Below are positions 1 through 11,808 of a stretch of 11,808 nt of DNA, one piece after another; within the stretch, counting starts at the first letter, position 1, and each line of letters starts with the position of its first letter. The notes under the pieces were generated by a model. That model was given only the letters and a program-made list of their open reading frames with translations, did no database searches and was not told where the DNA came from. The stretch comes from Candidatus Iainarchaeum sp. (lineage in GTDB: Archaea > Iainarchaeota > Iainarchaeia > Iainarchaeales > 0-14-0-20-30-16), in the NCBI GenBank assembly GCA_903916665.1, contig CAIWXP010000120.1, forward strand, positions 1 through 11,808, written 5' to 3'. The position numbers and the translations under genes were made by a program.

Positions 1-298
1 TATTATTATTTTTTAATGTTACATAGAATAATTTAATATTATGTTTTCTTGCCATATAATCTTCTGCTAATTTAACCAATCCTTTACCTCTAGATTCTGG
101 AGACAAAACAATTTGAACAAAACCTGAATTCTCGGGTGATTTACAAGGTACAAATCCAACTACACCTACTTTTTTATTATCCCACATAATGCTGTAATAC
201 TTTCCATCTTCTACTATTTTCATAACATCTTTATCTTTTAAAGTTTTAAAATAATCTTCATCAAAATCTATTAACTTAACAGCCATCATATCAATCAT
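1..298 (-). CDS. GNAT-family N-acetyltransferase-like protein, partial (3-prime end lies beyond the left window edge)
   Basis: Absent from the supplied ORF track because it runs off the edge. The minus-strand frame is open from 298 to 1 (99 codons, no stop): MIDMMAVKLIDFDEDYFKTLKDKDVMKIVEDGKYYSIMWDNKKVGVVGFVPCKSPENSGFVQIVLSPESRGKGLVKLAEDYMARKHNIKLFYVTLKNNN. The ATG at 298-296 overlaps the TGA stop (297-295) of the upstream gene (ATGA overlap); alternative ATGs lie at 289 and 286. VLSPESRGKGLVKLAEDY resembles GNAT motif A (R/Q-x-x-G-x-G/A acetyl-CoA loop). The family call rests on this one motif. Confidence 0.5.
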   Translation of the reverse strand, partial: MIDMMAVKLIDFDEDYFKTLKDKDVMKIVEDGKYYSIMWDNKKVGVVGFVPCKSPENSGFVQIVLSPESRGKGLVKLAEDYMARKHNIKLFYVTLKNNN

Positions 299-963
299 CC
301 TCTTTTATTTTTTTCTTTACTTTTTTTAATTCGTTTTTCTGCTTTATAAATATAATAAGAATAAATCACAATAATTATTGCAGAAATAATTATTGGAATA
401 ATTAATAAAAAGAAGCAAAGCTTTTGAAATATTAATCCTAATAATGCTATAAATGCACTAATTATGAATAAATTTGAACCAAATATATGAGTTTTATTCC
501 AATTTTCATCACTATTCAAAGTCCAGGGCGTTCTTATACCTACAAAATAATTTCTTTTTGTATGTTTTAACATTACACCCAGATAAAAAAACAAAAAGAA
601 AAATCCAGGAATTATGGCAACACCAAAATTAAACGTTTTTCCCAAACCAAAAATAATAATTAATAATTGCATGTAAAGCATGAATAGTAAAAATGTTAAA
701 ACAAAACCATCATAGTACTTTTGGAAATATTTATAATTCTCCTTTAAAGGATCAAATCTAGGCAAAAAATATAATAATAAAAACAATATTCCTGACATTA
801 TTGGCATCAATAAAACAGCTAATAATTTAGAACTATGCCCATTTACATTCCCATTAATATCCCAATGACTAGGAACTACGTCTGGCAAATAAAAATAGGC
901 TAAAAGACTTATAACAAATAAAATTACTAAAATGATAATTGCAAAATAATTACTTTTATTCAT
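295..963 (-). CDS. DUF1648 + SdpI-family integral membrane protein (SdpI/YhfL-like immunity/signalling protein family)
   Basis: 222 aa with multiple hydrophobic helices. N-terminal YLPDVVPSHWDINGNVNGHSSK matches the DUF1648-type motif. Central RNYFVGIRTPWTLNSDENWNKTH is the hallmark SdpI-family motif (GIRTPWTL...W). The tail is Lys-rich (KAEKRIKKSKEKNKRG). ATG start at 963, TGA stop at 297-295. Confidence 0.8.
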   Translation of the reverse strand: MNKSNYFAIIILVILFVISLLAYFYLPDVVPSHWDINGNVNGHSSKLLAVLLMPIMSGILFLLLYFLPRFDPLKENYKYFQKYYDGFVLTFLLFMLYMQLLIIIFGLGKTFNFGVAIIPGFFFLFFYLGVMLKHTKRNYFVGIRTPWTLNSDENWNKTHIFGSNLFIISAFIALLGLIFQKLCFFLLIIPIIISAIIIVIYSYYIYKAEKRIKKSKEKNKRG

Positions 964-983
964 AGTATTAATACTAATTAAAG

Positions 984-991
984 AATATAAA
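984..991 (-). promoter_or_regulatory. Putative TATA box (TTTATATT) with a purine-rich BRE-like flank, positioned for a leaderless SdpI-family transcript
   Basis: The minus strand reads GTAGAAAGGA-TTTATATT-CTTTAATTAGTATTAATACT-ATG. The box centre is about 24-25 nt upstream of the ATG at 963, the spacing expected for a leaderless archaeal mRNA. No SD-like sequence sits near the ATG. Confidence 0.35.
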
Positions 992-1009
992 TCCTTTCTA
1001 CACTATCAA

Positions 1010-1753
1010 TTAGGCTTTGATTTTAGAAAATAGATAACTTCCAATGCCCAATGCAACAAAAGTTAATAGCCCTAGAATTATAAAATCTAATAATATACCA
1101 AAATGTGCCACTCCACCAAATGCTGCTCGTAAACCATCCACCCCATAGGATAATGGGTCTACAACAGCAATCCAAGTTATAATAGAGGGCAAACCTTCTA
1201 AAGGGAATAATGCTCCTGATAAAAAGAAAATTGGCATTACTAAAAAATTCATAATCAATTGGAAACCTTGCATATCATCTAAAACTGAAGCAATTGCAGT
1301 TCCCAAAGCAGTAAAAAATAAAGCTATTAAGAAACCAAAAACTAAAGCCAAAGGCAATAAAGCAAAATTTATCTGGAAACCAAACAATAAAGAAATCAAA
1401 AGAACAATTAATCCTTGGGCCAATGAAATTGTTGCACCACCCAAAGTTCGTCCAACCATAATCTTAAATCTTGAAACTGGTGCAACTAAAGTTTCTTTCA
1501 AAAAACCAAACTGCTTATCCCAAATAATTTCTATACCTGAAAACAAAGCAGTAAATAAAATACTCATTGCAATAATCCCTGGTGCTAAAAATTGAATATA
1601 ACTACCTCCACCGGCTTTTGCAAATATTGGACCAAAGCCAAAGCCAAAGGCAACTAAAAATAATAAAGGTTGTGCTATTGAACCAATAATTCTTGATTTA
1701 GATCTTAAATATTTTTTAATTTGTCTTAACCAAAGAATACCAATAGGACCCAT
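1010..1753 (-). CDS. ABC-2 type transporter permease (DrrB/NodJ-like exporter membrane subunit)
   Basis: 247 aa with about six hydrophobic segments. The N-terminus LRQIKKYLRSKSRIIGSIAQPLLFL is typical of ABC-2 permeases. Its ATG (1753-1751) shares one base with the TAA stop (1755-1753) of the upstream ATPase gene (TAATG), which implies translational coupling. Confidence 0.85.
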   Translation of the reverse strand: MGPIGILWLRQIKKYLRSKSRIIGSIAQPLLFLVAFGFGFGPIFAKAGGGSYIQFLAPGIIAMSILFTALFSGIEIIWDKQFGFLKETLVAPVSRFKIMVGRTLGGATISLAQGLIVLLISLLFGFQINFALLPLALVFGFLIALFFTALGTAIASVLDDMQGFQLIMNFLVMPIFFLSGALFPLEGLPSIITWIAVVDPLSYGVDGLRAAFGGVAHFGILLDFIILGLLTFVALGIGSYLFSKIKA

Positions 1754-2556
1754 TACTTTCGCCCCCAGGCTTTTGCATGAACTTTAAACTGATCTTTAGT
1801 TGTTGCAATTTCATCTCTAATTTCATGACCTGTTAATTCAATAAATGCATCTTCCAAAGTTTTTGTTTTTGTTTGTTTTTTTAATTCTTCACCAGTGGAT
1901 TCAATAATAATCTTTCCTTTATCTATTATTGCAATCCTATTTGCAACTCTATCAGCTTCATCCATATAATGAGTTGTAAAAAATATTGTTGTTCCTTCTT
2001 CTTTATTCATTTTTAATATATAATCCCAAATATGATTTCTTGTTTGAGGATCTAAACCTAAAGTGGGTTCATCTAAAAATAATATTTTAGGATGATGTAA
2101 TAAACCTCTTGCAATTTCTAATCTTCGTTTCATACCACCAGAAAACTCTTTTACTAAACTATCTTTTCTTTCCCAAAGTTCAACAAACTTTAATAATTGT
2201 TCAATTCTTGGCTTTATTGTTTGTTTAGAAACATTATACAAAACAGCATGTAATTCCATATTTTCCCAAGCAGTTAAATCATCATCTAAGCTAGGATCTT
2301 GAAAAACTATACCAAAAGTTTTACGAATTTCGTTTGCACTAGTTGTTAAATCAAAACCATTTAATTTTACTATGCCAGAAGTTGGTTCTAAAATAGTAGT
2401 TAACATTTTAATGGTTGTTGACTTTCCAGCACCGTTTGGTCCTAGGAACGCAAATATGTCTCCTTGATTAACATCAAATGATATATTATCAACAGCAGTA
2501 AAGTCTTTGAACTTTTTCGTTAACCCTTTTACTTCAATTGAAAACATATACATCAC
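1753..2556 (-). CDS. ABC transporter ATP-binding protein (DrrA/NatA-like, partner of the ABC-2 permease)
   Basis: Walker A GPNGAGKST, Q-loop GIVFQDPSL, ABC signature FSGGMKRRLEIARGL, Walker B ILFLDEPTLGLD, H-loop FFTTHYMDEA and C-terminal LEDAFIELTG. The track start at 2556 is a GTG. In-frame ATGs at 2553 and 2547 (MFSIEVKGL...) are at least as likely, and GTGAT at 2556-2552 could serve as the RBS for the 2547 ATG. Confidence 0.95.
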   Translation of the reverse strand: MMYMFSIEVKGLTKKFKDFTAVDNISFDVNQGDIFAFLGPNGAGKSTTIKMLTTILEPTSGIVKLNGFDLTTSANEIRKTFGIVFQDPSLDDDLTAWENMELHAVLYNVSKQTIKPRIEQLLKFVELWERKDSLVKEFSGGMKRRLEIARGLLHHPKILFLDEPTLGLDPQTRNHIWDYILKMNKEEGTTIFFTTHYMDEADRVANRIAIIDKGKIIIESTGEELKKQTKTKTLEDAFIELTGHEIRDEIATTKDQFKVHAKAWGRK

Positions 2557-2684
2557 AAAATAAATACTAAAATAAGATTCTATTTTAATTTTGTTAATTT
2601 TCTAATAAAATTAAAATTAACTATAATTATAAAAAGCAAATTACATATATAAATGTATCGGTAACGATAGTTTGATAATCAATC

Positions 2685-3977
2685 CTATGGGTTAACTAAT
2701 TGACCCATAAATAATATATTTCTTGTTTCCTTATCAATTATGTAAAACATAAATGGATGATTTGCATCAAATACTTTTGGTTCCTGTGGATTTATAGGCA
2801 TTGCCGTAGCCACAACACCAATTACTGTTGCTGCAGCTGCTTCTGTTCCTTCTTCATTAACTTCAATAAATGCTTTATGTATTACATCAGAAACAAATAA
2901 ATTTTTATTGCCAGTAAATCCAGATAAATCTGCTTTATCTGTAAAAACATCTTTTAAACCCAAATCAATTAATTGATTCTTTAAATTATTGTAGGTAACT
3001 TCTAATTTAAATTTTGGTAAATATAAATCTACCTTCTCAAAATTCATATTACTTAAAACAGTATTTAATTTATTATTGTCAAAATCATTTAATGAATTTA
3101 AATCTGTTTTGGGTAAAACTACAATCATTGATAATTGATTTCCTTTATAAGGCAATTCAATTGCTTGTAATTTTGAATCTTCAAAATAATTAAATCTTTC
3201 ATCAAAAATACTCATATAATTTACTTTTGATGTTATACCAAAATCATTATTAAAATCTTTTTCTTCTGTATTTTCTGGTTTAAATGCCAATAACCAAGAT
3301 CCTTTAAAATATATTGCATTTGCAATAACAATTCTTGTTGATGAATCTATAAAATCCTTTGATATTATATCTTTAATTTTACCATTTGTTTGATTCTCAA
3401 CCCAAGTATTAATTATTTTTACTGCACCATCAACATTACTAAAATCCAAATTATCTAAATTTGCACCATAGTATTTTTTTGCATTGCCAATATATTCTGG
3501 TAATAACGAAAAGTTATTATTTACCCAAATAGCATTTGCAGTACTTAATTTATATTCATTATTATCACTATTATAAGAATTATAAATATTTGCAAAAGCA
3601 GGTCTTCTAATTTCTAAACTAGGATAACCAAAAACATCATCTAATTCTTTTTTTGTATTTTCTTTTGAAGCTTCACTTAAAATAGCAAAAGCATCTGTTA
3701 TACTATATGGTGAATAAAATTGATTCTCTGTTTTTGACAATTCTTTGTATAATTTAAAACCAAATTCATTATTTCCAGTAATAACACTTGATAAAGAATC
3801 TGAACTTAAATTATAATCAATAACTGAATTTGAATTATTTATGGTGTTTAAATCGTTTAAACCATTTGAATCAGAAATAACAGGATTATTATTACTATTA
3901 TCAACTAAAATTCCTACACCTAACACAATTCCAATAACTACTAAAATAACAACCGTTGTTAAAACTTTATATAACAT
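2685..3977 (-). CDS. Serpin (serine protease inhibitor, inhibitory type) with N-terminal signal-anchor and Asn/Ser-rich tether
   Basis: 430 aa. Serpin landmarks are NAIYFKGSW (s3A), LYLPKFKLE, HKAFIEVNEEGTEAAAAT (s5A plus hinge), and FDANHPFMFYI, which fits the PROSITE serpin signature pattern as I recall it. The C-terminus is LFMGQLVNP. The N-terminus MLYKVLTTVVILVVIGIVLGVGILV is one long hydrophobic helix with no lipobox Cys, followed by a low-complexity N/S linker of about 40 aa before the serpin core (NNEFGFKLYKEL...FYSPYSI). Confidence 0.95.
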   Translation of the reverse strand: MLYKVLTTVVILVVIGIVLGVGILVDNSNNNPVISDSNGLNDLNTINNSNSVIDYNLSSDSLSSVITGNNEFGFKLYKELSKTENQFYSPYSITDAFAILSEASKENTKKELDDVFGYPSLEIRRPAFANIYNSYNSDNNEYKLSTANAIWVNNNFSLLPEYIGNAKKYYGANLDNLDFSNVDGAVKIINTWVENQTNGKIKDIISKDFIDSSTRIVIANAIYFKGSWLLAFKPENTEEKDFNNDFGITSKVNYMSIFDERFNYFEDSKLQAIELPYKGNQLSMIVVLPKTDLNSLNDFDNNKLNTVLSNMNFEKVDLYLPKFKLEVTYNNLKNQLIDLGLKDVFTDKADLSGFTGNKNLFVSDVIHKAFIEVNEEGTEAAAATVIGVVATAMPINPQEPKVFDANHPFMFYIIDKETRNILFMGQLVNP

Positions 3978-3981
3978 AGAA

Positions 3982-3986
3982 TCACC
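3982..3986 (-). promoter_or_regulatory. Shine-Dalgarno-like GGTGA upstream of the serpin ATG
   Basis: The minus strand reads TATGGTGATTCT-ATG, with a 4-nt spacer. It is the only G-rich pentamer in this intergenic region. Confidence 0.35.
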
Positions 3987-4010
3987 ATAAACTACATTAG
4001 ATATAACTTT

Positions 4011-4024
4011 ATTTTATATATAAA
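4011..4024 (-). promoter_or_regulatory. Putative archaeal-type TATA box (TTTATATATAAAAT) for the serpin gene
   Basis: The minus strand reads CCAATAAG-TTTATATATAAAAT. The box centre is about 43 nt upstream of the serpin ATG (3977). A TSS about 26 nt downstream of the centre would give a leader of roughly 17 nt containing the GGTGA at 3986-3982. The AT-rich background makes chance TATA-like strings common. Confidence 0.35.
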
Positions 4025-4044
4025 CTTATTGGCTATATCAAAAA

Positions 4045-4518
4045 TTAATTCAATAAAACTATTGAAAAATTTAAAATACTGGCAAATGTTACCCAAAGTA
4101 AATAAGGTATTAGTAAATAAGCACTTATTGGTGATATTTCGAAACATATAATTATGTTTACTAATATAGCAATCCACAATATGAATATTTCTATTAATGC
4201 AAATAATGGTTTGTGTAAACCAAAAAACAAAATACTCCAAAACAAATTCAAAACCAATTGTATTGCAAAAACAATTAATGCTAATTTTACTCCTGAATAA
4301 CCAAAGCCATAGGACACTATTAAATACAAACTAATTCCCATTAAAATAAACAATGCTGTCCATACTGGTCCAAAAATCCAATTAGGGGGATTAAAAATTG
4401 GTTTTTTGATAGTTTTGTACCACGTTTTAACAGAATTTGTTGTAAATATTGACCCTAAAAAACCTATAATCAAAGGTATTGTAATACATATTATTAAGCT
4501 TAACAAATTAAATGTCAT
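4045..4518 (-). CDS. tspO: TspO/MBR family tryptophan-rich sensory protein (5-TM tetrapyrrole-binding membrane protein family)
   Basis: 157 aa with five hydrophobic helices. WYKTIKKPIFNPPNWIFGPVWTALFILMGISLYLI matches the conserved TspO N-terminal motif (WY..L.KP...PP...F..VW..LY..MG). The C-terminal YLLWVTFASILN matches the family's last helix. It lies 19 nt downstream of the preceding gene. Confidence 0.9.
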   Translation of the reverse strand: MTFNLLSLIICITIPLIIGFLGSIFTTNSVKTWYKTIKKPIFNPPNWIFGPVWTALFILMGISLYLIVSYGFGYSGVKLALIVFAIQLVLNLFWSILFFGLHKPLFALIEIFILWIAILVNIIICFEISPISAYLLIPYLLWVTFASILNFSIVLLN

Positions 4519-4537
4519 AGTATCACAAAATTATTAT

Positions 4538-4939
4538 TTATTGCATTTCTAATAAAACTTTCAAAAGATTTTCAGAATCTTTCATTTCTTTTTCAATGGC
4601 TTTAATAAATGATTCTGGTACTTTCTCTAAACCCATAAAATGTAAGCCATTACTTTCTAAATATAAATAACTTATTTTTAATTTTTGCAATGCTAAATAA
4701 TAGGGATCTTGAGATGCTTTTCTAATTTTGGAAACTTTTTTAGTTTTTAAATATTCTTTTAATAATCGTTCATATTCTGATCTTAAAAATTGTGCATGAT
4801 TATATGCTTTTTGAAAAAGATTCTTTGGTATGGGTCTAAATTTTAGATAACCAAATTCTCTCAATGCCCAAAGATCTGTTTCTGTTTGTTTAATTACTTC
4901 TCTAGATCTTGTATGGCATTCTGGAAATCTTACAGGCAT
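4538..4939 (-). CDS. Hypothetical protein, 133 aa, soluble, Lys/Glu-rich, predicted helical; no family recognised
   Basis: Clean ATG-to-TAA ORF. There are only 9 nt (AGTGAGAAT) between the giant gene's TAA and its ATG, and 19 nt to tspO. No TM segment or signal peptide. I could not assign any conserved motif (N-terminus MPVRFPECHTRSREV...). Support for a real gene comes from its operonic position and the lack of overlap with other ORFs. Confidence 0.6.
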   Translation of the reverse strand: MPVRFPECHTRSREVIKQTETDLWALREFGYLKFRPIPKNLFQKAYNHAQFLRSEYERLLKEYLKTKKVSKIRKASQDPYYLALQKLKISYLYLESNGLHFMGLEKVPESFIKAIEKEMKDSENLLKVLLEMQ

Positions 4940-4948
4940 ATTCTCACT

Positions 4949-7900
4949 TTAACTATAACTTAATGCATGATGTTTTTTTCGTTTTCTATTTGCACTATAA
5001 ATAATTATTGCTAAAATAATTATTAATACAATCATAATATACCAATAATTATTTGTTGTAGTATCTTGTTCAATACCATTGTTTGCTATTGGTTCTACAA
5101 CAGTATTATTATCTTCAACAATAACATTATTATTTTCTGAATTATTATTATCAATTACATTTGTATTATTGTTATTTGAAATTGTATTTGTATTATTATT
5201 TTCAACTACTGCATTATTATCTATTATTTTATTTACATCTTCTAATGCAATTATTGGATCATTTATTACTTTTAATTCAAAGTTTGCTTTTCCATTTGTA
5301 ATTGATAATAATTTTACGCTCAAATCATAGTTTCCATCACCATCATAGTCTCTTTTTATTGATTCACCAATTGCTAAAGTGTAATTCATTGGCGTAGAGT
5401 ATAAATCAAATGAAACACTATTAAAATCTGAATTTATATCTTTAATTATTAATTTATGTCTTATACCATAGTGTCCTTTTTTATCAACAGTAAATTCAAT
5501 TGTTTGATTTAAAGAAATACCTCTTAATACACCTGAGTTATTTACTACTAATGTATTAGATCCAGAACCTGAAGAATTAGAATTGTTATTTGGTTGTTGA
5601 TATTCTTCTAATCCTTGCCATCTTAATACAGGCAAACCATTTTGAGTTTCCCAAATAGTATTAAAATTCCAATTAGTTAAAGGTGCATTTGATGAATTGT
5701 AAAAATAACTTAAATTATTTTGGATTAAAGTACAATCTGTAGATAATGAATTATCATCTTCACTAATACAATCATACCCTGGATTACTAACATAGGATCC
5801 AACAACTAATGAATCGAATTCAGAATATTCATTATGTTGCTTTAAGCCTACTAAGCTTCCAATAGTATCTGGGCCATCACCTAAATTGGTTAAGTTACTC
5901 ACAGTAAAAGAATTTCTAATATCTTCTCCTGATAAGAATCCTACTAAACCACCTACATTATTGGAACCAGAAACATTTCCTGATGAATATGAATTATAAA
6001 TACTCATTTCTGCAGGACCCATAAATCCTACTAAACCACCTACATTATTGGAACCAAAAACATTTGATTTAGAATAACAATTTCTAATAATTGAATTATT
6101 TGCAGATCCTACTAAACCACCTACATTGTCACTACCAGAAACTAAATTATTATCTGAATAGGATTGTCTAATTGCACCTATATTTTGACCTGCTAAACCA
6201 CCTACTGCAAAATACCCCGTTACATTTCCATTAGCATAGGACTTACTAATAGTTCCTGAACTACTTCCAACCAATCCACCAATAGATTCACCAGAAGAAT
6301 TTACATTACCAGTAGCAAAGGAATTAGAAATATTACCATCGTAAGAAGCTCCAACTAAACCACCAACACCATAATTCCCATTTACATCAGCAGAAGAATG
6401 AGAATTAATGGTAGTACTTGTTTGTAATACACCTATTAATCCACCTACACTTTCATTATTTGCAAATACATTCCCAGATGAACTTGAATTAATTACTAAT
6501 CCATTATTTATTTCTGCAGCTAATATTCCTACAGTTGAAAAACCAATAATATTTGCATCAATTAAATTTACACTTGATATTATTGAATTATTAACAGTAC
6601 CAAATAACCCAACATGAGATCTATTAGGCCAATTAGCATACAAATTTAATATATTATAATTGTTTCCGTAAAAATTACCACTAAATTGATCATCCATACC
6701 TATTGTATAAAATCCATTACTTTCATTAGCATACCACGAATTTTCATTATCTTCACAATCTGTTTGATTATTATAATCAAAATCAGAACAATGTGCAGCA
6801 ACAAAATTCCACGTATTAGTATCAGAACAATCTATATTATTAATTAATTCATAATTGTTCCCCTGAGAATAATTTATATTCTGTAAATCTAAACATGAAT
6901 TTATATCATAGTGACCATCGTGATCATTATCATTGATTAATTGTTCCCAATATAATATAGGATAATTATCATCTCTTACTTTCCAAACAGTTGAAAAGTC
7001 CCAATAGCCTGATGCATAAACATTAAAATCAGGATTGTAAAAATCATTGTAATCTTGTGCTTTAAAAACATTATCTGGATATTCTTCTGCATCCCAATAG
7101 GGCATATTTGAATTATTATACCACCAAAAATTATTTACTGTAAAATCATCAGAATAATCATATAAAATAATTGCTGAATCTGGATTCAATGTATTTACTG
7201 TTGAATAACAATTATTTATTTCTAAATAGGGTACTTCGCCAACAAAACCACCTGATGCATTACCATTAATATCTCCAGTAGTATAGCTATTTGAAATAGT
7301 TAATGATAAACCACTATCATTATTCTCTGCTCCATAACCTACAAATCCACCTATATCTGAAAATGCATTTATATTTACATTTGCATAATCGTTGTAAAAA
7401 AGTAAACTATTGTCATTGGTGTAAGAATTAACTGTTCCAACTAAACCACCAACATCGCTTCCATTTAAAACAAAAATATTAACATCTGCAAATGATTGTA
7501 TAATACTAAATTCATAGTCTTCTTCTTCAACATTTTGACTTTCAAATAATCCTATAAATCCACCAACATTTTGTATTTCATTGTCAGAAGATATATTTCC
7601 TTTAAAATAGGATTTTTCAATGTGAACACTTGTTCTTCCTTCGTTATTTAATCCACCTACTAATCCACCAATATCACTACCAGTTACAAATATATTTGCA
7701 TCTGCACCTGTGTTTTGTATATTTGGATAGGGAGTATAACCAATTAATCCTCCAACATTCTGTTGTGCATTTATATCTCCATAAAATAATGAGTTTGTGA
7801 CATTAATACTTGATGTATAATATTGGTCTTCATCTGAGCTATAATACATTGCATAGCTAGATCCTACTAAACCACCAACATCATTTTGGCCAATAATATT

Positions 7901-10900
7901 AGCATCAACATAAACTGTATTCAAAGAACAATTTGGATTATCATCTTCAATATTACAATCCATTTCACCAATTATTCCTCCAACACTACTTCCACTATGA
8001 GCATCAATATTACCAAAGAAACTTGAATTATCAATTGTTATATCTGATCTATTATCACAGGGTTCTTGTCCTGAAATACCTACTAATCCACCAACATAAC
8101 CCATAACACCAAATATATTTGCATCAACTCTTGAATTCTTTATATTTGTAAAACAACTTAAACCTACTAATCCACCAACAGCAAATACACCTAAGAAACT
8201 ACCAGTAGCAGTTACATTTGTAATATTTAAATTATTATTTCCGGTTGACATTGATACCAACGCACCAACCATTATTTCTCCAATTATATTGGCATTAATT
8301 ATATTCAAATCCTTAATTGTTACTTCACTATTATTTGAATCAACAACACCAAACAAACTAGCAAAATTATTTTCTGAATTTATATACAAATTACTAATAC
8401 TATTATTATTACCATCAAAATTTCCAGTAAATGGAATTTCAGTTCCTAAAGGAATAAATCCCAAATATTTATCTTGAATCCAATTAGCTGCTTGAGCATC
8501 ACAATCTTCTGGATTATTAATATCAGGGAAACCATCACAGTGTGCAGGGACAAAATTCCATGTGTTAGTATCAGAACAATCAATATTATTTCCTAAACTA
8601 AAATTTGCATCTAAAAAATTGTTGATATCTTGTAATTGATTACAATCAGTAACAACAAATGGATCATCAAATGTTCCTGTACCAGAAAATGGCGCATATG
8701 TAACATTTACATTTATATCATTTATTGTTTCATTACCAGCATTATCTACTGCTTTAATAAAATAGGTATGTTCCCCCAATTCTTGTGTGTACACATTAAT
8801 TGAAGTATTCAAATCATTGCTTACCCAATTAACATTATTATCACTGAAAAGATATTCTTTTATTCCCGATAAACTATCTGTTCCAGTATAATTTAATTGA
8901 AAATCTAAAGTTGAATTATGAGTATATAAATCAGAATTATTATTTGGCGAATTAATATTTAAATCTGGTGCAGTTTTATCTATCAAAATATATTTTGTAT
9001 ATTGATTACCATCCACACCAAAGAAATTCTTTGAATAATAAGTAATTCCATTTCTACCTTCTGTTGTAAATGAAATATTTGAATTATATAATTCAGAAAT
9101 TATTCCCCCACCAACAATATTTTTCAATGTAAAACCTGTACCATCACCAAAAGAATATGCCCCATCACCAAGATCAACATATACATCGTGATTAAAAGTT
9201 ATTGGATCTACTAAATCAACAGCACTACTTGGATACTGTCTTACTACCCAGGCATTACCTTGAGAATCAAATGATATTCCTTTTTGCCAACCCAACCATG
9301 GATGAATATCAAGACTATTATTTAAAGGATTAATTACTGAAACTCCGTCCATTGCACCATAATCATTTGCTACCCAAACCTTACCATCTAAACCAATAGA
9401 AACATCATTAGGGTGATCTTGAAGATTAATTGTTGCAATTACAGACTGAGTTTCTGGATCAATTCTTGAAATTGAGTCACTCCAATAATTTGATACCCAA
9501 ACATTGTTATTTAAATCAACTGCAATACCTGTTGGAGATGCGCCTACCGAAATATTGTAATCATTTGTATTTGTTGTTGCATTTATAAAAAATACTTTGT
9601 CTAAACCACTTACTGCCACCCAAACATTTTGATCAGGACCTACTGCAATATCATAGGGATTACCACCAATATTAATTGTTGCAATAACTTCATTTGTATC
9701 TAAATCTATTCTATATACAAATCCATCAAAACTAGACACCCAAGCATTATTATTTGCATCAATTGCAATACCCCACGGTCTTGAATCTAAAGGAATTGTA
9801 TTAAAAATTTCATTTGTATTTGCATTAATACCATAAATTTCTGAAGAATCAAATCCAGTTACCCAAGCATTACCATAATTATCTACTGCAACACTATAGC
9901 CAACATTTGGAATATCTATTGTCGCTTCTAATTCATGAGTAATAGTATTTATTTTATATAATTTTTTTGCACTCGTTGCAGACACCCATAAAGTATCTGG
10001 AGAAAAATTATTAATTAAATAATAACTATTTCCACATCCTGATCCATTATCAACACAGGTTAAATGTAAATCTATATCACTATTATGCCACGCATCAAAA
10101 TTAATATCTACATCGGTTGTTGCAGATGCTGTTTGATATTTTAAAATTGGATAATTATTGTTTCTAGTTTTCCAAATGTTTTGTAAATCCCAAATCATAA
10201 TTGGATCCTCTACTTCAGAACCTTGGAACCAACCCAATCCTCCTCGCGCAGGAACCATTATATTACAATGAGAATTATCTTCTGAATCACAAAAAAGAGT
10301 ACTATCATCACTAGATTGGTAACCCCATAATTCATTTACAGAACCATAACTATTAACAGTTCCAAATAAAAAACCAACATCAAGAGGCCCAGAAATATTT
10401 CCAACACTAAATAAATTATTTGCATTTGTTAATTGAGTATCTACTCTACCAATTAAACCACCAGCATTACTTGATATTGCATTTACATCTCCAGAATTAT
10501 AGGAATTATTAATATAATTATTTGTTAACAAAAAACCAGCTAATCCACCAACATAATTATTTCCATCTATATTTCCAGAATTATAGCTATTTAAAATATT
10601 TAAATCATAGCCTGAATAACCAATTAAACCTGAAACATAATCATTACCAAAAATATTGCCTGTTGAAAAACTTTCATTAATTATTACATTATTATTAGTA
10701 TCAAACTGTTCTGATTGCCCAATTAAACCACCAACATAATTACTATTAGAATAAATTGATCCTATATTTAATGAACGGTAAATATTTGTTTGTCCATTAT
10801 CTGAACTTGCAGAACCAATAGCTCCTATTAATCCACCTACATTATTTGCATCATCAACAACATTAATATCAGCATAGTTACTAGAATTCAATATATTTGC

Positions 10901-11808
10901 AGCCCTAACTCCATTTCCTTCTCCCAATAATGCAATTAGACCCCCTACTGCATAACCAGAATTTCCAAAATCATAAATCTTACCATAGTTATCTGAATGA
11001 TTTACTGTAAAATTATTTGCAGTCAATACATACCCAATTAATCCACCTACATTTGTATACCCCTTAATTGTACCATAATTATTTGACCGATAAATATTTA
11101 CGTCTCCAAATGTACCAATATTAGCAATTAAACCAGCTGCATCAAAACTATCTAAATCAGTTGTATTAACATTTGCATAATTATTTGAATTAATTATATT
11201 TGTTATACCGCTTGCATTAATATTTAAATATCCTATAATACCTGCTGCATCCGAATGACCGGCAGAAATATTTCCTGAAACGTTAACATTGGAAACTGTG
11301 AAACTTACATTATGTTGGTCATAATCTACGCCTATCTGGCCAGCCAATGCACCAACATCTTCATAACCACTAATATTAAAATCTGCCAAAGTTAAATCTT
11401 TAATTACAACATTATTATCAACAAATATAGTACTAAATACTCCTACCGTAGATAAATTTGGATTATTAATATACAATCCACTTATTGTATGATGATTTCC
11501 ATCAAAATTACCTCTAAATGGATGAAAATAATCACCTATTGGTTGCCAACCCAATCCACCATTCCAAAAATCGCCACCTTCATGAGTTTGATCAAAACAA
11601 TTTATATCATTTGCTAAAGCAAAATAGGGTACATAAAAATTATCAAAATTATCTGGCTCAGTATTTGCAGGATCTAAATGAAAAATCATAAAAGACAGGT
11701 CCCAACAATTATATATTGGACAAGGATTATTAGATGTTTGACCTAATTTAAAGGTTCCATCATCGTTATAGTCTAAACAAATTCCATTGGCAAAAACTAA
11801 ATTTAAAA
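4949..11808 (-). CDS. Giant cell-surface protein (5-prime partial): 3x GLUG-motif beta-helix modules + beta-propeller + Ig-like domain + C-terminal TM anchor; putative adhesin
   Basis: The track ORF (4949..11689, 2246 aa) begins at an internal Met. I translated the same frame upstream (11690-11806) and it stays open to the window edge: ...LNLVFANGICLDYNDDGTFKLGQTSNNPCPIYNCWDLSF-MIFHLDP. At least 2,285 codons are therefore visible. There are about 31 GG[LI][VI]G-type GLUG motifs in three blocks, each ending in W.F..[IV]W......[YL]P[IV]L.[YW][QE]. The C-terminus is YWYIMIVLIIILAIIIYS + ANRKRKKHH. Paired Cys residues and very many N-x-S/T sequons fit an extracellular location. Confidence 0.9.
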   Translation of the reverse strand, partial: LNLVFANGICLDYNDDGTFKLGQTSNNPCPIYNCWDLSFMIFHLDPANTEPDNFDNFYVPYFALANDINCFDQTHEGGDFWNGGLGWQPIGDYFHPFRGNFDGNHHTISGLYINNPNLSTVGVFSTIFVDNNVVIKDLTLADFNISGYEDVGALAGQIGVDYDQHNVSFTVSNVNVSGNISAGHSDAAGIIGYLNINASGITNIINSNNYANVNTTDLDSFDAAGLIANIGTFGDVNIYRSNNYGTIKGYTNVGGLIGYVLTANNFTVNHSDNYGKIYDFGNSGYAVGGLIALLGEGNGVRAANILNSSNYADINVVDDANNVGGLIGAIGSASSDNGQTNIYRSLNIGSIYSNSNYVGGLIGQSEQFDTNNNVIINESFSTGNIFGNDYVSGLIGYSGYDLNILNSYNSGNIDGNNYVGGLAGFLLTNNYINNSYNSGDVNAISSNAGGLIGRVDTQLTNANNLFSVGNISGPLDVGFLFGTVNSYGSVNELWGYQSSDDSTLFCDSEDNSHCNIMVPARGGLGWFQGSEVEDPIMIWDLQNIWKTRNNNYPILKYQTASATTDVDINFDAWHNSDIDLHLTCVDNGSGCGNSYYLINNFSPDTLWVSATSAKKLYKINTITHELEATIDIPNVGYSVAVDNYGNAWVTGFDSSEIYGINANTNEIFNTIPLDSRPWGIAIDANNNAWVSSFDGFVYRIDLDTNEVIATINIGGNPYDIAVGPDQNVWVAVSGLDKVFFINATTNTNDYNISVGASPTGIAVDLNNNVWVSNYWSDSISRIDPETQSVIATINLQDHPNDVSIGLDGKVWVANDYGAMDGVSVINPLNNSLDIHPWLGWQKGISFDSQGNAWVVRQYPSSAVDLVDPITFNHDVYVDLGDGAYSFGDGTGFTLKNIVGGGIISELYNSNISFTTEGRNGITYYSKNFFGVDGNQYTKYILIDKTAPDLNINSPNNNSDLYTHNSTLDFQLNYTGTDSLSGIKEYLFSDNNVNWVSNDLNTSINVYTQELGEHTYFIKAVDNAGNETINDINVNVTYAPFSGTGTFDDPFVVTDCNQLQDINNFLDANFSLGNNIDCSDTNTWNFVPAHCDGFPDINNPEDCDAQAANWIQDKYLGFIPLGTEIPFTGNFDGNNNSISNLYINSENNFASLFGVVDSNNSEVTIKDLNIINANIIGEIMVGALVSMSTGNNNLNITNVTATGSFLGVFAVGGLVGLSCFTNIKNSRVDANIFGVMGYVGGLVGISGQEPCDNRSDITIDNSSFFGNIDAHSGSSVGGIIGEMDCNIEDDNPNCSLNTVYVDANIIGQNDVGGLVGSSYAMYYSSDEDQYYTSSINVTNSLFYGDINAQQNVGGLIGYTPYPNIQNTGADANIFVTGSDIGGLVGGLNNEGRTSVHIEKSYFKGNISSDNEIQNVGGFIGLFESQNVEEEDYEFSIIQSFADVNIFVLNGSDVGGLVGTVNSYTNDNSLLFYNDYANVNINAFSDIGGFVGYGAENNDSGLSLTISNSYTTGDINGNASGGFVGEVPYLEINNCYSTVNTLNPDSAIILYDYSDDFTVNNFWWYNNSNMPYWDAEEYPDNVFKAQDYNDFYNPDFNVYASGYWDFSTVWKVRDDNYPILYWEQLINDNDHDGHYDINSCLDLQNINYSQGNNYELINNIDCSDTNTWNFVAAHCSDFDYNNQTDCEDNENSWYANESNGFYTIGMDDQFSGNFYGNNYNILNLYANWPNRSHVGLFGTVNNSIISSVNLIDANIIGFSTVGILAAEINNGLVINSSSSGNVFANNESVGGLIGVLQTSTTINSHSSADVNGNYGVGGLVGASYDGNISNSFATGNVNSSGESIGGLVGSSSGTISKSYANGNVTGYFAVGGLAGQNIGAIRQSYSDNNLVSGSDNVGGLVGSANNSIIRNCYSKSNVFGSNNVGGLVGFMGPAEMSIYNSYSSGNVSGSNNVGGLVGFLSGEDIRNSFTVSNLTNLGDGPDTIGSLVGLKQHNEYSEFDSLVVGSYVSNPGYDCISEDDNSLSTDCTLIQNNLSYFYNSSNAPLTNWNFNTIWETQNGLPVLRWQGLEEYQQPNNNSNSSGSGSNTLVVNNSGVLRGISLNQTIEFTVDKKGHYGIRHKLIIKDINSDFNSVSFDLYSTPMNYTLAIGESIKRDYDGDGNYDLSVKLLSITNGKANFELKVINDPIIALEDVNKIIDNNAVVENNNTNTISNNNNTNVIDNNNSENNNVIVEDNNTVVEPIANNGIEQDTTTNNYWYIMIVLIIILAIIIYSANRKRKKHHALSYS
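4952..5047 (-). other. C-terminal transmembrane anchor plus basic cytoplasmic tail of the giant protein
   Basis: YWYIMIVLIIILAIIIYS (hydrophobic, about 18 aa) is followed by ANRKRKKHHALSYS and the stop. No LPXTG, PGF or PEP motif precedes it. Confidence 0.85.
5048..5254 (-). repeat. Asn-rich low-complexity stalk (NN[NT]x[VI][IV][DE] quasi-repeats)
   Basis: IIDNNAVVENNNTNTISNNNNTNVIDNNNSENNNVIVEDNNTVVEPIANNGIEQDTTTNN lies immediately before the TM anchor and contains several N-x-T/S sequons. Confidence 0.8.
5255..5551 (-). other. C-terminal membrane-proximal beta-sandwich-like domain of unknown family, with a DxDxDG loop
   Basis: LVVNNSGVLRGISLNQTIEFTVDKKGHYGIRHKLIIKDINSDFNSVSFDLYSTPMNYTLAIGESIKRDYDGDGNYDLSVKLLSITNGKANFELKVIND shows an alternating hydrophobic/polar beta pattern. 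It is bracketed by the low-complexity linkers QQPNNNSNSSGSGSN and the Asn-rich stalk. Confidence 0.45.
5609..6940 (-). repeat. GLUG beta-helix module 3 (Cys-rich head, about 9 short regular GLUG repeats, cap NWNFNTIWETQNGLPVLRWQ)
   Basis: The head is DHDGHYDINSCLDLQNINYSQGNNYELINNIDCSDTNTWNFVAAHCSDFDYNNQTDCED...FSGNFYGNNYNILNLYANWPNRSHVGLFGTV. It is followed by a regular period of about 22-29 aa, I.NS[YF]..GNV.G...VGGLVG. Examples: IRNCYSKSNVFGSNNVGGLVGF, IYNSYSSGNVSGSNNVGGLVGF. Confidence 0.8.
5937..6127 (-). repeat. Near-identical intragenic DNA direct repeats inside module 3
   Basis: 5937-5978 (aatcctactaaaccacctacattattggaaccagaaacattt) and 6024-6065 (aatcctactaaaccacctacattattggaaccaaaaacattt) differ at one position over about 42 nt and lie 87 nt (29 codons) apart. 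A third copy of the 22-nt core atcctactaaaccacctacatt is at 6106-6127. They encode (S/D)NNVGGLVG(F/S). Confidence 0.85.
6941..8689 (-). repeat. GLUG beta-helix module 2 (Cys-rich head, about 11 GLUG repeats, cap YWDFSTVWKVRDDNYPILYWEQ)
   Basis: The head is GTFDDPFVVTDCNQLQDINNFLDANFSLGNNIDCSDTNTWNFVPAHCDGFPDINNPEDCD...GFIPLGTEIPFTGNFDGNNNSISNLYINSENNFASLFGVV. GLUG motifs: VGALVSM, VGGLVGL, VGGLVGI, VGGIIGE, VGGLVGS, VGGLIGY, IGGLVGG, VGGFIGL, VGGLVGT, IGGFVGY, SGGFVGE. Confidence 0.8.
8690..8980 (-). other. Ig-like (OmpL47-type / bacterial Ig-like) domain of the giant protein
   Basis: KTAPDLNINSP...TGTDSLSGIKEYLFSDNNVNWVSNDL...ELGEHTYFIKAVDNAGNET follows the pattern TAP ... D.LSG[IV]...Y....W ... 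G.H.....A.D.AGN.E, which is typical of these Ig-like surface domains. Confidence 0.6.
9185..10009 (-). repeat. Beta-propeller region, 6-7 blades of about 41-43 aa (YVTN/NHL/Vgb-lyase-like repeats)
   Basis: The recurring unit is P.GIA[VI]D..[GN]N.WV.......I.RI[DN]..TN.VI.TI.[LI]. Examples: SRPWGIAIDANNNAWVSSFDGFVYRIDLDTNEVIATINIG, GNPYDIAVGPDQNVWVAVSGLDKVFFINATTN, ASPTGIAVDLNNNVWVSNYWSDSISRIDPETQSVIATINLQ, DHPNDVSIGLDGKVWVANDYG, WQKGISFDSQGNAWVV. Confidence 0.75.
10130..11808 (-). repeat. GLUG beta-helix module 1 of the giant protein (head partly outside the window; about 11 GLUG repeats; cap WDLQNIWKTRNNNYPILKYQ)
   Basis: The head is ...FALANDINCFDQ...GWQPIGDYFHPFRGNFDGNHHTISGLYINNPNLSTVGVF. 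It is followed by repeats of about 20-30 aa, each ending in VGALAGQ, AAGIIGY, AAGLIAN, VGGLIGY, VGGLIAL, VGGLIGA, VGGLIGQ, VSGLIGY, VGGLAGF, AGGLIGR or VGFLFGT. The cap motif is encoded at 10133-10192. Confidence 0.8.

What the first reader, a model, noticed from the sequence alone, without database searches (positions are those of the whole stretch)
2685..3977. Membrane-tethered, inhibitory-type serpin in a minimal, AT-rich genome context
The ORF has all the core serpin landmarks and a textbook inhibitory hinge (EEGTEAAAAT, P17-P8). Small Ala residues at P12-P9 are the established requirement for loop insertion. A single N-terminal hydrophobic helix without a lipobox, followed by an Asn/Ser-rich linker of about 40 aa, suggests the inhibitor is held at the cell surface on a flexible tether rather than secreted free. 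Prokaryotic and archaeal serpins are known but sporadic. No protease gene lies in the window, so the target may be exogenous, from a host, partner or competitor.
Basis: partly seen in the sequence, partly recalled or inferred. Interest (0 to 1): 0.6.

Follow-up and report, generated by a model that had tools for sequence, protein, structure and literature searches.

The report
Surface-exported inhibitory serpin, DPANN-like archaeon
The gene is a genuine, full-length protease inhibitor of the serpin family from an uncultivated small-genome (DPANN-like) archaeon, exported and probably held at the cell membrane; it is a well-formed but ordinary member of an already annotated family.

Summary
Window 2685-3977 (minus strand) encodes a 430-aa protein that matches Pfam Serpin end to end (369 bits, E 2.7e-110).

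- **Inhibitory features:** the hinge is the canonical EEGTEAAAAT (aa 375-384). The shutter and breach residues are conserved. Canonical counting puts P1/P1' at Thr391/Ala392, in an uncharged aliphatic loop.
- **N-terminus:** Lys4 is followed by 21 uncharged residues with no Cys, then an acidic Asn/Ser-rich segment that is disordered in the model.
- **Relatives:** the nearest (62-73% identity) come from DPANN archaea (Ca. Diapherotrites) and share local gene order. Most of them carry a lipobox Cys where this protein has a longer hydrophobic helix. Membrane attachment therefore looks conserved, with only the anchor type changing.
- **Unresolved:** cleavage after Gly22, which would release a free serpin, cannot be excluded.
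- **Target:** no protease gene lies in the window or beside the close relatives, so the target remains unknown.

Membrane-anchored and lipoprotein prokaryotic serpins are already described (Spence 2021; miropin), and NCBI already labels relatives "serpin family protein". I rate it a new member of a known kind, of low-to-moderate interest.

The parts
2685..3977 (-). Complete serpin gene, 430 codons plus a TAG stop
   Evidence: ORF list. Pfam PF00079, 369.5 bits. The start codon is supported by the homologous N-terminus of P0003, with 17 of 27 residues identical.
3966..3977 (-). n-region MLYK. Lys4 is the only positive charge before residue 75.
3903..3965 (-). Hydrophobic segment V5-V25 (21 uncharged residues, no Cys). 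Predicted signal-anchor / TM helix. A possible signal peptidase I site follows G20-V21-G22.
   Evidence: Kyte-Doolittle 19-residue maximum of 2.96. AF2 helix at residues 2-24. Length comparison with lipobox relatives: median 15 residues before the Cys, against 21 here.
3777..3902 (-). Asn/Ser/Asp-rich acidic linker, aa 26-67 (11 N, 10 S, 5 D, no K/R). Residues 24-49 are disordered in the model; residues 59-67 already belong to helix A.
2688..3776 (-). Serpin domain, aa 68-430
   Evidence: Pfam positions 2-370 of 370. AF2 pLDDT mostly above 90. Foldseek TM 0.93 and rmsd 1.3 A to cleaved antichymotrypsin.
3699..3719 (-). Shutter motif FYSPYSI. S89 and S92 correspond to alpha1-AT S53 and S56.
   Evidence: BLASTP map to the verified alpha1-AT sequence. 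Invariant in alignment A1.
3294..3320 (-). s3A motif NAIYFKGSW. N220 and W228 correspond to alpha1-AT N186 and W194.
2826..2855 (-). Hinge EEGTEAAAAT, P17-P8 (E375-T384)
   Evidence: Essentially invariant (P9 and P8 each identical in 110 of 111) in 111 prokaryotic relatives, though those hits were selected by shared words.
2772..2825 (-). Variable part of the reactive-centre loop, VIGVVATAMPINPQEPKV (P7 to about P11')
   Evidence: Entropy peaks at P3/P2 and at P2'-P7' across relatives. AF2 pLDDT below 50 for residues 393-401.
2802..2807 (-). Canonical P1-P1' = Thr391-Ala392, opposite alpha1-AT Met358-Ser359. The scissile bond has not been mapped experimentally.
   Evidence: The same counting holds for archaeal serpins with mapped sites, according to PMC5297747.
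4017..4024 (-). TTTATATA, an archaeal TATA-box-like element 40 nt upstream of the ATG. A possible promoter for this gene alone.
   Evidence: The motif count over the whole window is not above chance (16 found, 13.2 expected), so this is suggestive only.
3982..3986 (-). GGTGA, a Shine-Dalgarno-like element 4 nt before the ATG
   Evidence: Read directly from the sequence; not tested statistically.

Best explanation
The gene encodes a canonical inhibitory serpin of an uncultivated, AT-rich, DPANN-like archaeon. Its nearest relatives are from Ca. Diapherotrites/Iainarchaeota.

**Export and location (inferred).** The N-terminal segment (Lys4 plus 21 hydrophobic residues) would direct Sec-dependent export in an N-in/C-out orientation. 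It most likely stays in the membrane as an uncleaved signal anchor. The serpin body would then hang outside the cell on a disordered, acidic Asn/Ser-rich linker of about 25-35 residues.

**Mechanism (from established serpin biochemistry, not shown here).** A target protease cleaves the exposed reactive-centre loop near V388-V389-A390-T391|A392-M393. The acyl-enzyme is trapped as the hinge (P15-P9, GTEAAAA) inserts into beta-sheet A as strand s4A. The result is an irreversible covalent complex. The uncharged, small-aliphatic loop predicts subtilisin-, proteinase-K- or elastase-like targets rather than trypsin-like ones.

**Biological role (inferred).** The serpin would protect the cell envelope and its surface proteins from secreted serine proteases. 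No cognate protease is encoded nearby.

**What is shown and what is inferred.** Family membership, the inhibitory-type sequence features, the predicted fold and the comparative anchor pattern are shown. Topology, retention in the membrane, inhibition and target class are inferred.
For: **Family and fold**
- Pfam Serpin match over the full profile, 369 bits, and 197 PDB serpin matches.
- The AF2 model has mean pLDDT 86.5 and superposes on cleaved serpins at TM 0.93, rmsd 1.3 A. P15-P2 are modelled as an inserted strand, so the hinge sequence is compatible with insertion.

**Inhibitory-type features**
- P17 E, P15 G, P14 T and P12-P9 AAAA are present.
- The equivalents of S53, S56, N186, W194, K290, H334, E342 and P391 are all conserved.
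- The hinge is invariant and the P3-P7' region hypervariable across 111 relatives. This is the pattern expected for inhibitors that are diversifying their specificity.
- Characterised archaeal serpins are real inhibitors of subtilisin- and chymotrypsin-like proteases (PMC5297747).

**Export and anchor**
- There is a single hydrophobic segment of 21 residues. The positive charge lies before it, and 5 Asp with no Lys/Arg lie after it.
- Almost all of the 114 prokaryotic relatives examined have an N-terminal hydrophobic segment.
- Fifty have a lipobox, with a median of 15 hydrophobic residues before the Cys. The 63 without a detected lipobox have runs clustering at 18-23 residues.
- Within the 10-member clade, the basal members P0010 and P0008/9 have lipoboxes. 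The Cys-less, lengthened segment shared by the window protein and P0003-5 therefore looks derived.
- Lipoproteins and the AliA lipidation enzyme family are predicted to be prevalent in DPANN (PMC12462473).

**Archaeal / DPANN origin**
- P0003 (69% identity by BLASTP) is from a Ca. Diapherotrites MAG, where its neighbours include FtsZ, FEN1/XPG and Hef.
- Synteny is shared: TspO-serpin-SdpI in L007, and the ABC-2 pair next to the serpin in L004-6, with 55-65% identity.

**No cis protease:**
Against: - No experiment and no dedicated signal-peptide or topology predictor was available. G20-V21-G22 (S-I-G in P0003) fits the -3/-1 rule, so cleavage and release are possible.
- The AF2 model shows the loop-inserted state, not the metastable native state. 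This is a known bias of such models and does not show that a native inhibitory state exists.
- The canonical P1 is Thr, an unusual P1. Thr-Ser/Ala at P1-P1' is fairly conserved across relatives (60/111 and 97/111), while P3 and P2 vary most. The true scissile bond may therefore be shifted, and the target class is uncertain.
- The invariant hinge in the hit list is partly a selection artefact, because hits were chosen by shared 5-residue words.
- The organism is inferred from relatives only.
Confidence: 0.65

Rival explanations
1. The protein is a secreted, free inhibitory serpin. The N-terminal segment would be a classical Sec signal peptide cleaved by signal peptidase I after Gly22 (LGVG|ILVD), releasing a soluble serpin that starts ILVDNSNNN.
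For: - Small residues sit at -3/-1 (G20, G22), and P0003 has S-I-G at the same place.
- This is the position where sister proteins have the lipoprotein cleavage site.
- Some characterised prokaryotic serpins, such as chloropin, are described as secreted through a signal peptide (PMC10090351).
Against: - The hydrophobic run continues across the putative site (ILV follows G22). It totals 21 residues, which is TM length and longer than the 15-residue median of the cleaved lipoprotein signals in relatives.
- There is no polar c-region.
- AF2 models one continuous helix over residues 2-24.
- The loss of the lipobox Cys coincides with a lengthened hydrophobic stretch, as expected if attachment is being preserved.
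Confidence: 0.28
2. The serpin regulates an endogenous secreted or membrane-bound serine protease encoded elsewhere in the same genome, rather than defending against foreign proteases. Tk-serpin/Tk-subtilisin and Pnserpin/PnCHT are precedents.
For: - Both characterised archaeal 'hub' serpins inhibit proteases of their own organism (PMC8233489; PMC5297747).
- The absence of a protease from 11.8 kb says nothing about the rest of the genome.
Against: - No protease neighbour occurs in the three distinct contexts seen for the close relatives.
- Only 1 of 87 serpin loci has an S8 homologue within 6 kb, so there is no operonic pairing.
- DPANN genomes are small and depend on partners, which makes foreign proteases plausible targets. 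This last point is inference only.
Confidence: 0.4
3. The protein is a non-inhibitory serpin, acting for example as a binding, chaperone or storage protein, or it folds directly to the latent state.
For: - AF2 returns the loop-inserted conformation.
- Tengpin lacking its N-terminal segment folds to the latent state (PMC1905895).
- Thr at the canonical P1 is unusual.
Against: - The hinge is the textbook inhibitory consensus, with no Pro or bulky or charged residue at P14 or P12-P9. The shutter and breach residues are all conserved.
- Non-inhibitory serpins typically deviate at exactly these positions (PMC8233489).
- AF2's preference for the relaxed state is a general modelling bias.
Confidence: 0.06
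4. The protein is a cross-class inhibitor whose main targets are cysteine proteases (papain-like or others), as for serpin B3/SCCA1.
For: - Serpin B3/B4 are among the best natural PDB matches, at about 1e-68.
- The relatives have a small polar residue at P1 (Thr/Ser) and a hydrophobic residue at P2 (Leu/Met/Ile). From general knowledge of papain-like specificity, this would suit S2-driven cysteine proteases.
Against: - In the window protein itself P2 is Ala.
- There is no direct evidence.
- Similarity to clade B serpins reflects the consensus-like 'hub' nature of this group (PMC8233489), not shared specificity.
Confidence: 0.08

Closest known systems
'Hub-like' / Group S prokaryotic serpins (Spence et al. 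2021, PMC8233489), including archaeal Tk-serpin and Pnserpin
   Same: - The hinge is the same ExGTEAAAA motif.
- The sequence is consensus-like: the best PDB match is the consensus design conserpin, followed by clade B serpins.
- The source is an archaeal or environmental organism.
- The predicted mechanism is the same suicide-substrate inhibition.
- Canonical P12-to-P1 counting holds for archaeal serpins with mapped sites.
   Different: - Spence et al. hypothesised intracellular housekeeping roles for hub serpins. This protein and nearly all of its relatives carry export or anchor signals.
- The source is mesophile-like, very AT-rich and DPANN-like rather than a hyperthermophile.
- There are no Cys residues and so no disulfides.
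- Placement in Group S itself was not tested, because no reference sequences were available.
Miropin (Tannerella forsythia), a surface lipoprotein serpin
   Same: It is an inhibitory serpin displayed on the outside of a prokaryotic cell through an N-terminal anchor (PMC12686026). The nearest relatives of the window protein also carry lipoboxes.
   Different: - The window protein has no lipobox Cys. Its anchor would be a TM helix.
- The organism is an archaeon, so any lipid anchor in its relatives would be made by the AliA/AliB-type pathway, not by Lgt (PMC12462473).
- It belongs to a different phylogenetic group (miropin is Group T), and the RCL differs.
- Miropin's targets are host proteases in a human-associated niche.
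Diapherotrites-like DPANN serpin clade (P0002-P0010, e.g. the hypothetical protein of Ca. Diapherotrites archaeon CG08, GCA_002779075.1)
   Same: - Identity over the alignment is 58-73%.
- The hinge is identical, and the s1C motif is near-identical (KVFNANHPF in relatives, KVFDANHPF here).
- The neighbours are shared: TspO, SdpI/DUF1648 and the DrrAB-type ABC-2 pair.
- P0003-5 share the same Cys-less N-terminus, with 17 of 27 residues identical.
   Different: - The RCL sequence from P4 to P8' is unique to each member.
- Six of the nine relatives use a lipobox instead of the long helix.
- The window protein has the longest and most Asn/Ser-rich linker.
Tengpin (Thermoanaerobacter tengcongensis)
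   Same: It is a prokaryotic inhibitory serpin with an N-terminal extension of about 56 residues before the serpin domain (PMC1905895).
   Different: - In tengpin, part of the extension packs on the serpin body and traps the native state. Whether residues ~50-67 do this here is unknown.
- The tengpin paper does not describe a membrane anchor.
- Tengpin is bacterial and belongs to Group T.

Membership tests
Serpin superfamily (Pfam PF00079 / MEROPS I4) | Full-length sequence match to the family profile, above the curated threshold | tested here: met
   369.5 bits against a cutoff of 27; profile positions 2-370 of 370.
Serpin superfamily (Pfam PF00079 / MEROPS I4) | Serpin fold: three beta-sheets plus 8-9 helices | tested here: met
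   AF2 model with pLDDT 86.5. Foldseek TM 0.93 and rmsd 1.3 A to cleaved alpha1-antichymotrypsin, with 414 PDB matches at E<=0.001.
Inhibitory serpins | Hinge consensus: P17 Glu, P15 Gly, P14 Thr/Ser, small residues at P12-P9, no Pro | tested here: met
   E375-E-G-T-E-A-A-A-A-T384, aligned to alpha1-AT E342-M351.
Inhibitory serpins | Conserved shutter and breach residues (alpha1-AT S53, S56, N186, W194, K290, H334) | tested here: met
   S89, S92, N220, W228, K322 and H367 are present and invariant in alignment A1.
Inhibitory serpins | Exposed RCL with 17 residues from P17 to a defined P1, and a metastable native state | tested here: inconclusive
   Canonical counting gives T391, but the scissile bond has not been mapped. 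The primed side is 4-6 residues longer than in alpha1-AT. AF2 modelled the inserted state, not the native state.
Inhibitory serpins | SDS-stable covalent complex with a target protease | not testable with these tools
   Requires recombinant protein and protease assays.
Membrane-anchored prokaryotic serpins (class in Spence 2021; miropin-type surface lipoproteins) | N-terminal export signal that retains the protein at the membrane, either a TM-length hydrophobic segment or a lipobox | tested here: inconclusive
   The 21-residue uncharged segment, the positive-inside charge pattern and the AF2 helix at 2-24 favour an anchor. A G-V-G site compatible with signal peptidase I exists. No SignalP or DeepTMHMM was available.
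Membrane-anchored prokaryotic serpins (class in Spence 2021; miropin-type surface lipoproteins) | Lipobox [LVI][ASTVI][GAS]C | tested here: not met
   The protein has no Cys. The lipobox is present in sister proteins P0002 and P0006-P0010.
Group S ('ancestral-like' archaeal/bacterial serpins, Spence 2021) | Phylogenetic placement with Group S reference sequences | not tested
Only the shared ExGTEAAAA hinge and the consensus-like similarity were seen.
DPANN archaeal origin of the contig | Nearest homologues and synteny in DPANN genomes, with archaeal marker genes on related contigs | tested here: met
   P0003 is from a Ca. Diapherotrites MAG. FtsZ, FEN1 and Hef lie beside the serpin in L001 and L007. 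TspO, SdpI and the ABC-2 genes are syntenic at 55-65% identity. The window itself carries no universal marker gene, so this evidence is indirect.

The most novel reading that the evidence does not exclude
Serpins may be a recurrent, envelope-anchored component of the cell surface of small-genome episymbionts (DPANN archaea and CPR bacteria). They would shield the symbiont's exposed adhesins, such as the >2,200-aa surface protein three genes upstream, from host or community proteases. On this reading membrane attachment is the selected trait, because lineages swap a lipid anchor for a TM helix. The conserved Thr-Ser/Ala at the canonical P1-P1' would point to one shared, still unidentified class of target protease.
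Probability: 0.15. Interest if true: 0.5.

Novelty: new member of a known kind. Interest (0 to 1): 0.25.

Why it matters
The physiological targets of prokaryotic serpins are still largely unknown. The papers found here say so explicitly (PMC8233489, PMC10090351), and one hypothesises intracellular housekeeping roles for the consensus-like archaeal group.

This gene and its roughly 110 closest prokaryotic relatives almost all carry export or anchor signals, which argues for extracytoplasmic action in that group. No paper in the searched library discusses serpins in DPANN or CPR organisms. If a tethered serpin protects the surface of a host-dependent archaeon, it would be a small but concrete handle on how such cells survive in protease-rich consortia.

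Taken on its own, though, the gene is a routine, correctly predictable family member.

Tried and rejected
- **First genome-contig scan.** The scan with the single sequence found nothing. The second, with alignment A1, gave 574 relatives, but none from the window's own species.
- **Tengpin as a membrane-anchored precedent.** The paper contains no mention of a membrane, so I dropped that recollection.
- **Defence-island reading.** PADLOC has no hit for the serpin. Only the ABC ATPase gives generic ATPase hits, and NCBIfam places it as DrrA-type at 328.9 bits, above the cutoff.
- **Phage origin.** There is no PHROG hit.
- **Protease domain hidden in the giant neighbour.** The only signal is a sub-threshold Peptidase_M26_N hit covering the GLUG region. 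There is no HExxH motif and no Ser-protease motif.
- **Serpin-subtilisin gene pairing.** A tblastn search with subtilisin BPN' found 1 hit in 87 loci and none in the window.
- **Archaeal class III (pilin-like) signal peptide.** I read the N-termini against the K-[GA]|hydrophobic motif as I remember it. P0003 has K-A-L, but the window protein has K-V-L, so the -1 Gly/Ala requirement is not met. Rejected.
- **Promoter statistics.** TTTAWATA occurs 16 times against 13.2 expected. The TATA box upstream of the serpin is therefore only suggestive.
- **Horizontal transfer from eukaryotes or contamination.** The gene's GC content (24%) and GC3 (10%) match its neighbours, and its relatives are syntenic. 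Rejected.
Full report
**1. Observation**

The window holds seven ORFs, all on the minus strand. The ORF at 2685-3977 encodes 430 aa.
- It matches Pfam PF00079 (Serpin) with E 2.7e-110 and 369.5 bits. Residues 68-430 cover profile positions 2-370 of 370.
- It matches 197 distinct PDB serpin sequences. The best is the consensus design conserpin (E 4.5e-77), followed by a Trichinella serpin (9j91; identified through PMC11905679) and clade B serpins.
- NCBIfam has no specific model for it.
- The gene's composition (24.4% GC, 10% GC3) matches its neighbours. It is native to the contig.

**2. Anatomy**

It proved identical to PDB 2qug_A, so I used it to transfer the standard numbering (33% identity over 371 columns).

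| alpha1-AT residue | Window protein |
|---|---|
| S53 / S56 (shutter) | S89 / S92 |
| N186 | N220 |
| W194 | W228 |
| K290 | K322 |
| H334 | H367 |
| E342 (P17) | E375 |
| M358 / S359 (P1 / P1') | T391 / A392 |
| P361 | P394 |
| P391 | P430 |

- **Hinge.** EEGTEAAAAT (aa 375-384, nt 2826-2855) is the textbook inhibitory consensus.
- **Reactive-centre loop.** The loop around the canonical scissile bond reads V-V-A-T|A-M-P, which is uncharged and small-aliphatic. The primed side is 4-6 residues longer than in alpha1-AT.
- **P1 counting.** By the alignment in PMC5297747, the mapped cleavage sites of the archaeal serpins aeropin and Tk-serpin fall at the same canonical offset (P12+11). That supports the counting used here.
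- **N-terminus.** M-L-Y-K is followed by 21 uncharged residues, V5-V25. The 19-residue Kyte-Doolittle maximum is 2.96. The protein contains no Cys.
- **Linker.** Residues 26-67 have 11 Asn, 10 Ser and 5 Asp, with no Lys or Arg.
- **Topology.** With Lys4 before the helix and an acidic flank after it, the positive-inside rule predicts an N-in/C-out orientation. The serpin domain would therefore be extracytoplasmic (inference).

**3. Predicted structure**

AlphaFold2, run with a 31-sequence alignment, gave mean pLDDT 86.5 and pTM 0.79.
- Residues 2-24 form a helix.
- pLDDT is below 50 for residues 24-49 and 393-401.
- Helix A begins at residue 59, and the core is mostly above 90.
- Residues 377-390 (P15-P2) are modelled as a beta-strand.

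The best Foldseek matches are cleaved or latent serpins, for example cleaved antichymotrypsin at rmsd 1.3 A and TM 0.93. This shows that the hinge fits as strand s4A. It says nothing about whether the native state is metastable, because such models commonly return the relaxed state.

**4. Relatives and origin**

- The word-indexed search returned 7,468 hits at E<=1e-20 among 8,000 scored candidates.
- Nine proteins, P0002-P0010, are 62-71% identical by BLASTP (58-73% in alignment A1). They form a clade with the window protein in a neighbour-joining tree.
- P0003 is a 'hypothetical protein' of Ca. Diapherotrites archaeon CG08 (GCA_002779075.1).
- On those contigs the serpin sits beside archaeal genes: FtsZ, FEN1/XPG and the Hef helicase-nuclease.
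- Gene order is shared with the window. L007 has TspO-serpin-SdpI/DUF1648. L004-6 have the ABC-2 permease/ATPase pair next to the serpin, though there the serpin and the ABC pair are convergent rather than co-oriented as in the window. Protein identity is 55-65%.
- More distant relatives (34-47%) occur in at least 574 species-representative genomes. They include DPANN (Woese-, Nanohal-, Micr-, Alti- and Iainarchaeota), CPR/Patescibacteria, methanogens, Bathyarchaeia, Thermoplasmatales, Nitrosopumilaceae and many bacterial phyla.
- Against 185,579 species this is still sparse, so 'sporadic' is fair, but the taxonomic spread is wide.
- NCBI already names many of these relatives 'serpin family protein'.

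**5. Anchor or cleaved signal?**

Almost all of the 114 prokaryotic hits examined start with a hydrophobic segment.
- Fifty have a recognisable lipobox, with a median of 15 hydrophobic residues before the Cys.
- In the 63 without a detected lipobox, the uncharged run clusters at 18-23 residues. The shorter cases in this group are mostly lipobox variants that my pattern missed, or classical signals.

Within the close clade:
- P0002 and P0006-P0010 carry L/F/V-S-G-C.
- The window protein and P0003-5 share a homologous, Cys-less N-terminus with 17 of 27 residues identical. It reads LGVG-ILVD / LSIG-FLVD at the corresponding place.
- The lipobox members P0010 and P0008/9 branch basally, so the Cys-less state looks derived.
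- The loss of the Cys coincides with hydrophobic residues replacing the polar residues that follow the Cys in the relatives. This lengthens the stretch to TM size.

This is what one expects if membrane attachment is being maintained. Lipoproteins and the AliA enzyme family are reported to be prevalent in DPANN (PMC12462473), so the relatives' lipoboxes are plausibly functional.

However, G-V-G (S-I-G in P0003) satisfies the -3/-1 rule for signal peptidase I, and I had no dedicated predictor. I put retention at about 0.6-0.65 and cleavage with release at about 0.3.

**6. Reactive-loop variation**

I counted from the hinge in 111 prokaryotic hits.
- P17-P8 are essentially invariant. This is partly a selection artefact of word-based hit collection.
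- Entropy peaks at P3 and P2 (3.4 and 3.2 bits) and at P2'-P7' (about 3-3.7 bits).
- The canonical P1 is Thr in 60 of 111, and P1' is Ser or Ala in 97 of 111.
- P4 is Met, Val or Ile in 107 of 111.

The hydrophobic P4 and the uncharged P1 region suggest subtilisin-, proteinase-K- or elastase-like targets. This is an inference from general protease specificity. The relative conservation of Thr-Ser/Ala leaves open a one-residue shift of the real scissile bond, or a shared target class.

**7. Context and targets**

None of the window's other genes is a protease:

| Gene | Coordinates (nt) |
|---|---|
| SdpI/DUF1648 membrane protein | 295-963 |
| DrrB-type ABC-2 permease | 1010-1753 |
| DrrA-type ABC ATPase | 1753-2556 |
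| TspO | 4045-4518 |
| 133-aa protein of unknown family | 4538-4939 |
| Surface protein of more than 2,246 aa | 4949-11689 |

- The close relatives have no protease neighbour in three distinct contexts. The only peptidase nearby is an M99 metallocarboxypeptidase two genes away in L001.
- A tblastn search with subtilisin BPN' hit 1 of 87 serpin loci and did not hit the window.
- The serpin has 67 bp upstream containing TTTATATA 40 nt before the ATG, and GGTGA 4 nt before it. It has 128 bp downstream with a T-run and a second TTTATATA ahead of the ABC genes. It is probably transcribed on its own. The TATA motif is not enriched over the whole window.
- PADLOC and PHROGs give nothing for the serpin.

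**8. Comparison with what is known**

- Spence et al. 2021 (PMC8233489) describe 'hub-like' prokaryotic serpins with the ExGTEAAAA hinge. They report that most prokaryotic serpins have N-terminal transport peptides, and they include a 'membrane anchored (prokaryotic serpins only)' class.
- Miropin is a surface lipoprotein serpin (PMC12686026).
- Chloropin is described as secreted (PMC10090351).
- Tengpin's N-terminal extension traps the native state (PMC1905895). This raises a possible second role for residues ~50-67, just before helix A.
- No paper in the library discusses serpins in DPANN or CPR organisms.

**9. Verdict**

It is plausible on the tether, with new comparative support, but the tether is not proven. 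The target question remains open. The gene is a new member of a known kind, and its interest is low to moderate.

Noticed in passing
window 4949-11808 (-): A giant surface-protein gene. The 2,246-aa ORF has GLUG motifs, YVTN/beta-propeller repeats, and a C-terminal TM helix followed by a KRKK tail. The reading frame stays open from its first ATG to the contig edge, so the gene is truncated at its 5' end and its N-terminal signal lies outside the window. It has no HExxH motif; the only peptidase signal is a sub-threshold Peptidase_M26_N hit over the GLUG region.
   Followed up: partly
window 4538-4939 (-): A 133-aa ORF between the giant gene and TspO, separated from them by gaps of 9 and 19 bp. 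It has no Pfam, NCBIfam or PADLOC family, and only a marginal PHROG hit at E 0.009. It found no tblastn match in any of the 87 fetched loci.
   Followed up: partly
window 295-4518 (-); L007 7141-9565; L004 8190-11187: The TspO - serpin - (DrrAB-type ABC-2 pair) - SdpI/DUF1648 neighbourhood is partly conserved in the nearest relatives at 55-65% protein identity. In L004-6, however, the ABC pair is convergent with the serpin rather than co-oriented. No functional link is evident.
   Followed up: partly
111 prokaryotic relatives of the serpin (P0001-P0120), RCL offsets from the hinge: The canonical P1-P1' is Thr-Ser/Ala in most relatives (Thr in 60 of 111; Ser or Ala in 97 of 111), and P4 is Met, Val or Ile in 107 of 111. 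The most variable positions are P3, P2 and P2'-P7'. This hints at a shared target class or a shifted scissile bond.
   Followed up: partly
P0006 vs P0007 (relatives on L004-L006): These two proteins, which I saw differ only here, show a one-Ala difference in hinge length (EEGTEAAAAT against EEGTEAAAAAT). This is a natural one-residue polymorphism in the length of the RCL on the N-terminal side of P1, a length that is normally tightly constrained in inhibitory serpins.
   Followed up: no
window 1-11808: All seven genes are on the minus strand. The plus-strand GC skew is negative in every 500-bp window, with a cumulative value of -6.1. GC3 is only 10-20% in every gene.
   Followed up: no
window 5141-5200: A 27-bp tandem repeat (2.2 copies, 78% matches) inside the Asn-rich C-terminal stalk region of the giant protein.
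   Followed up: no
L001 1-4470: The Diapherotrites-type contig carrying the serpin orthologue P0003 also holds several toxin-antitoxin modules (two HicA genes, one paired with HicB, and ParE) within 10 kb.
   Followed up: no
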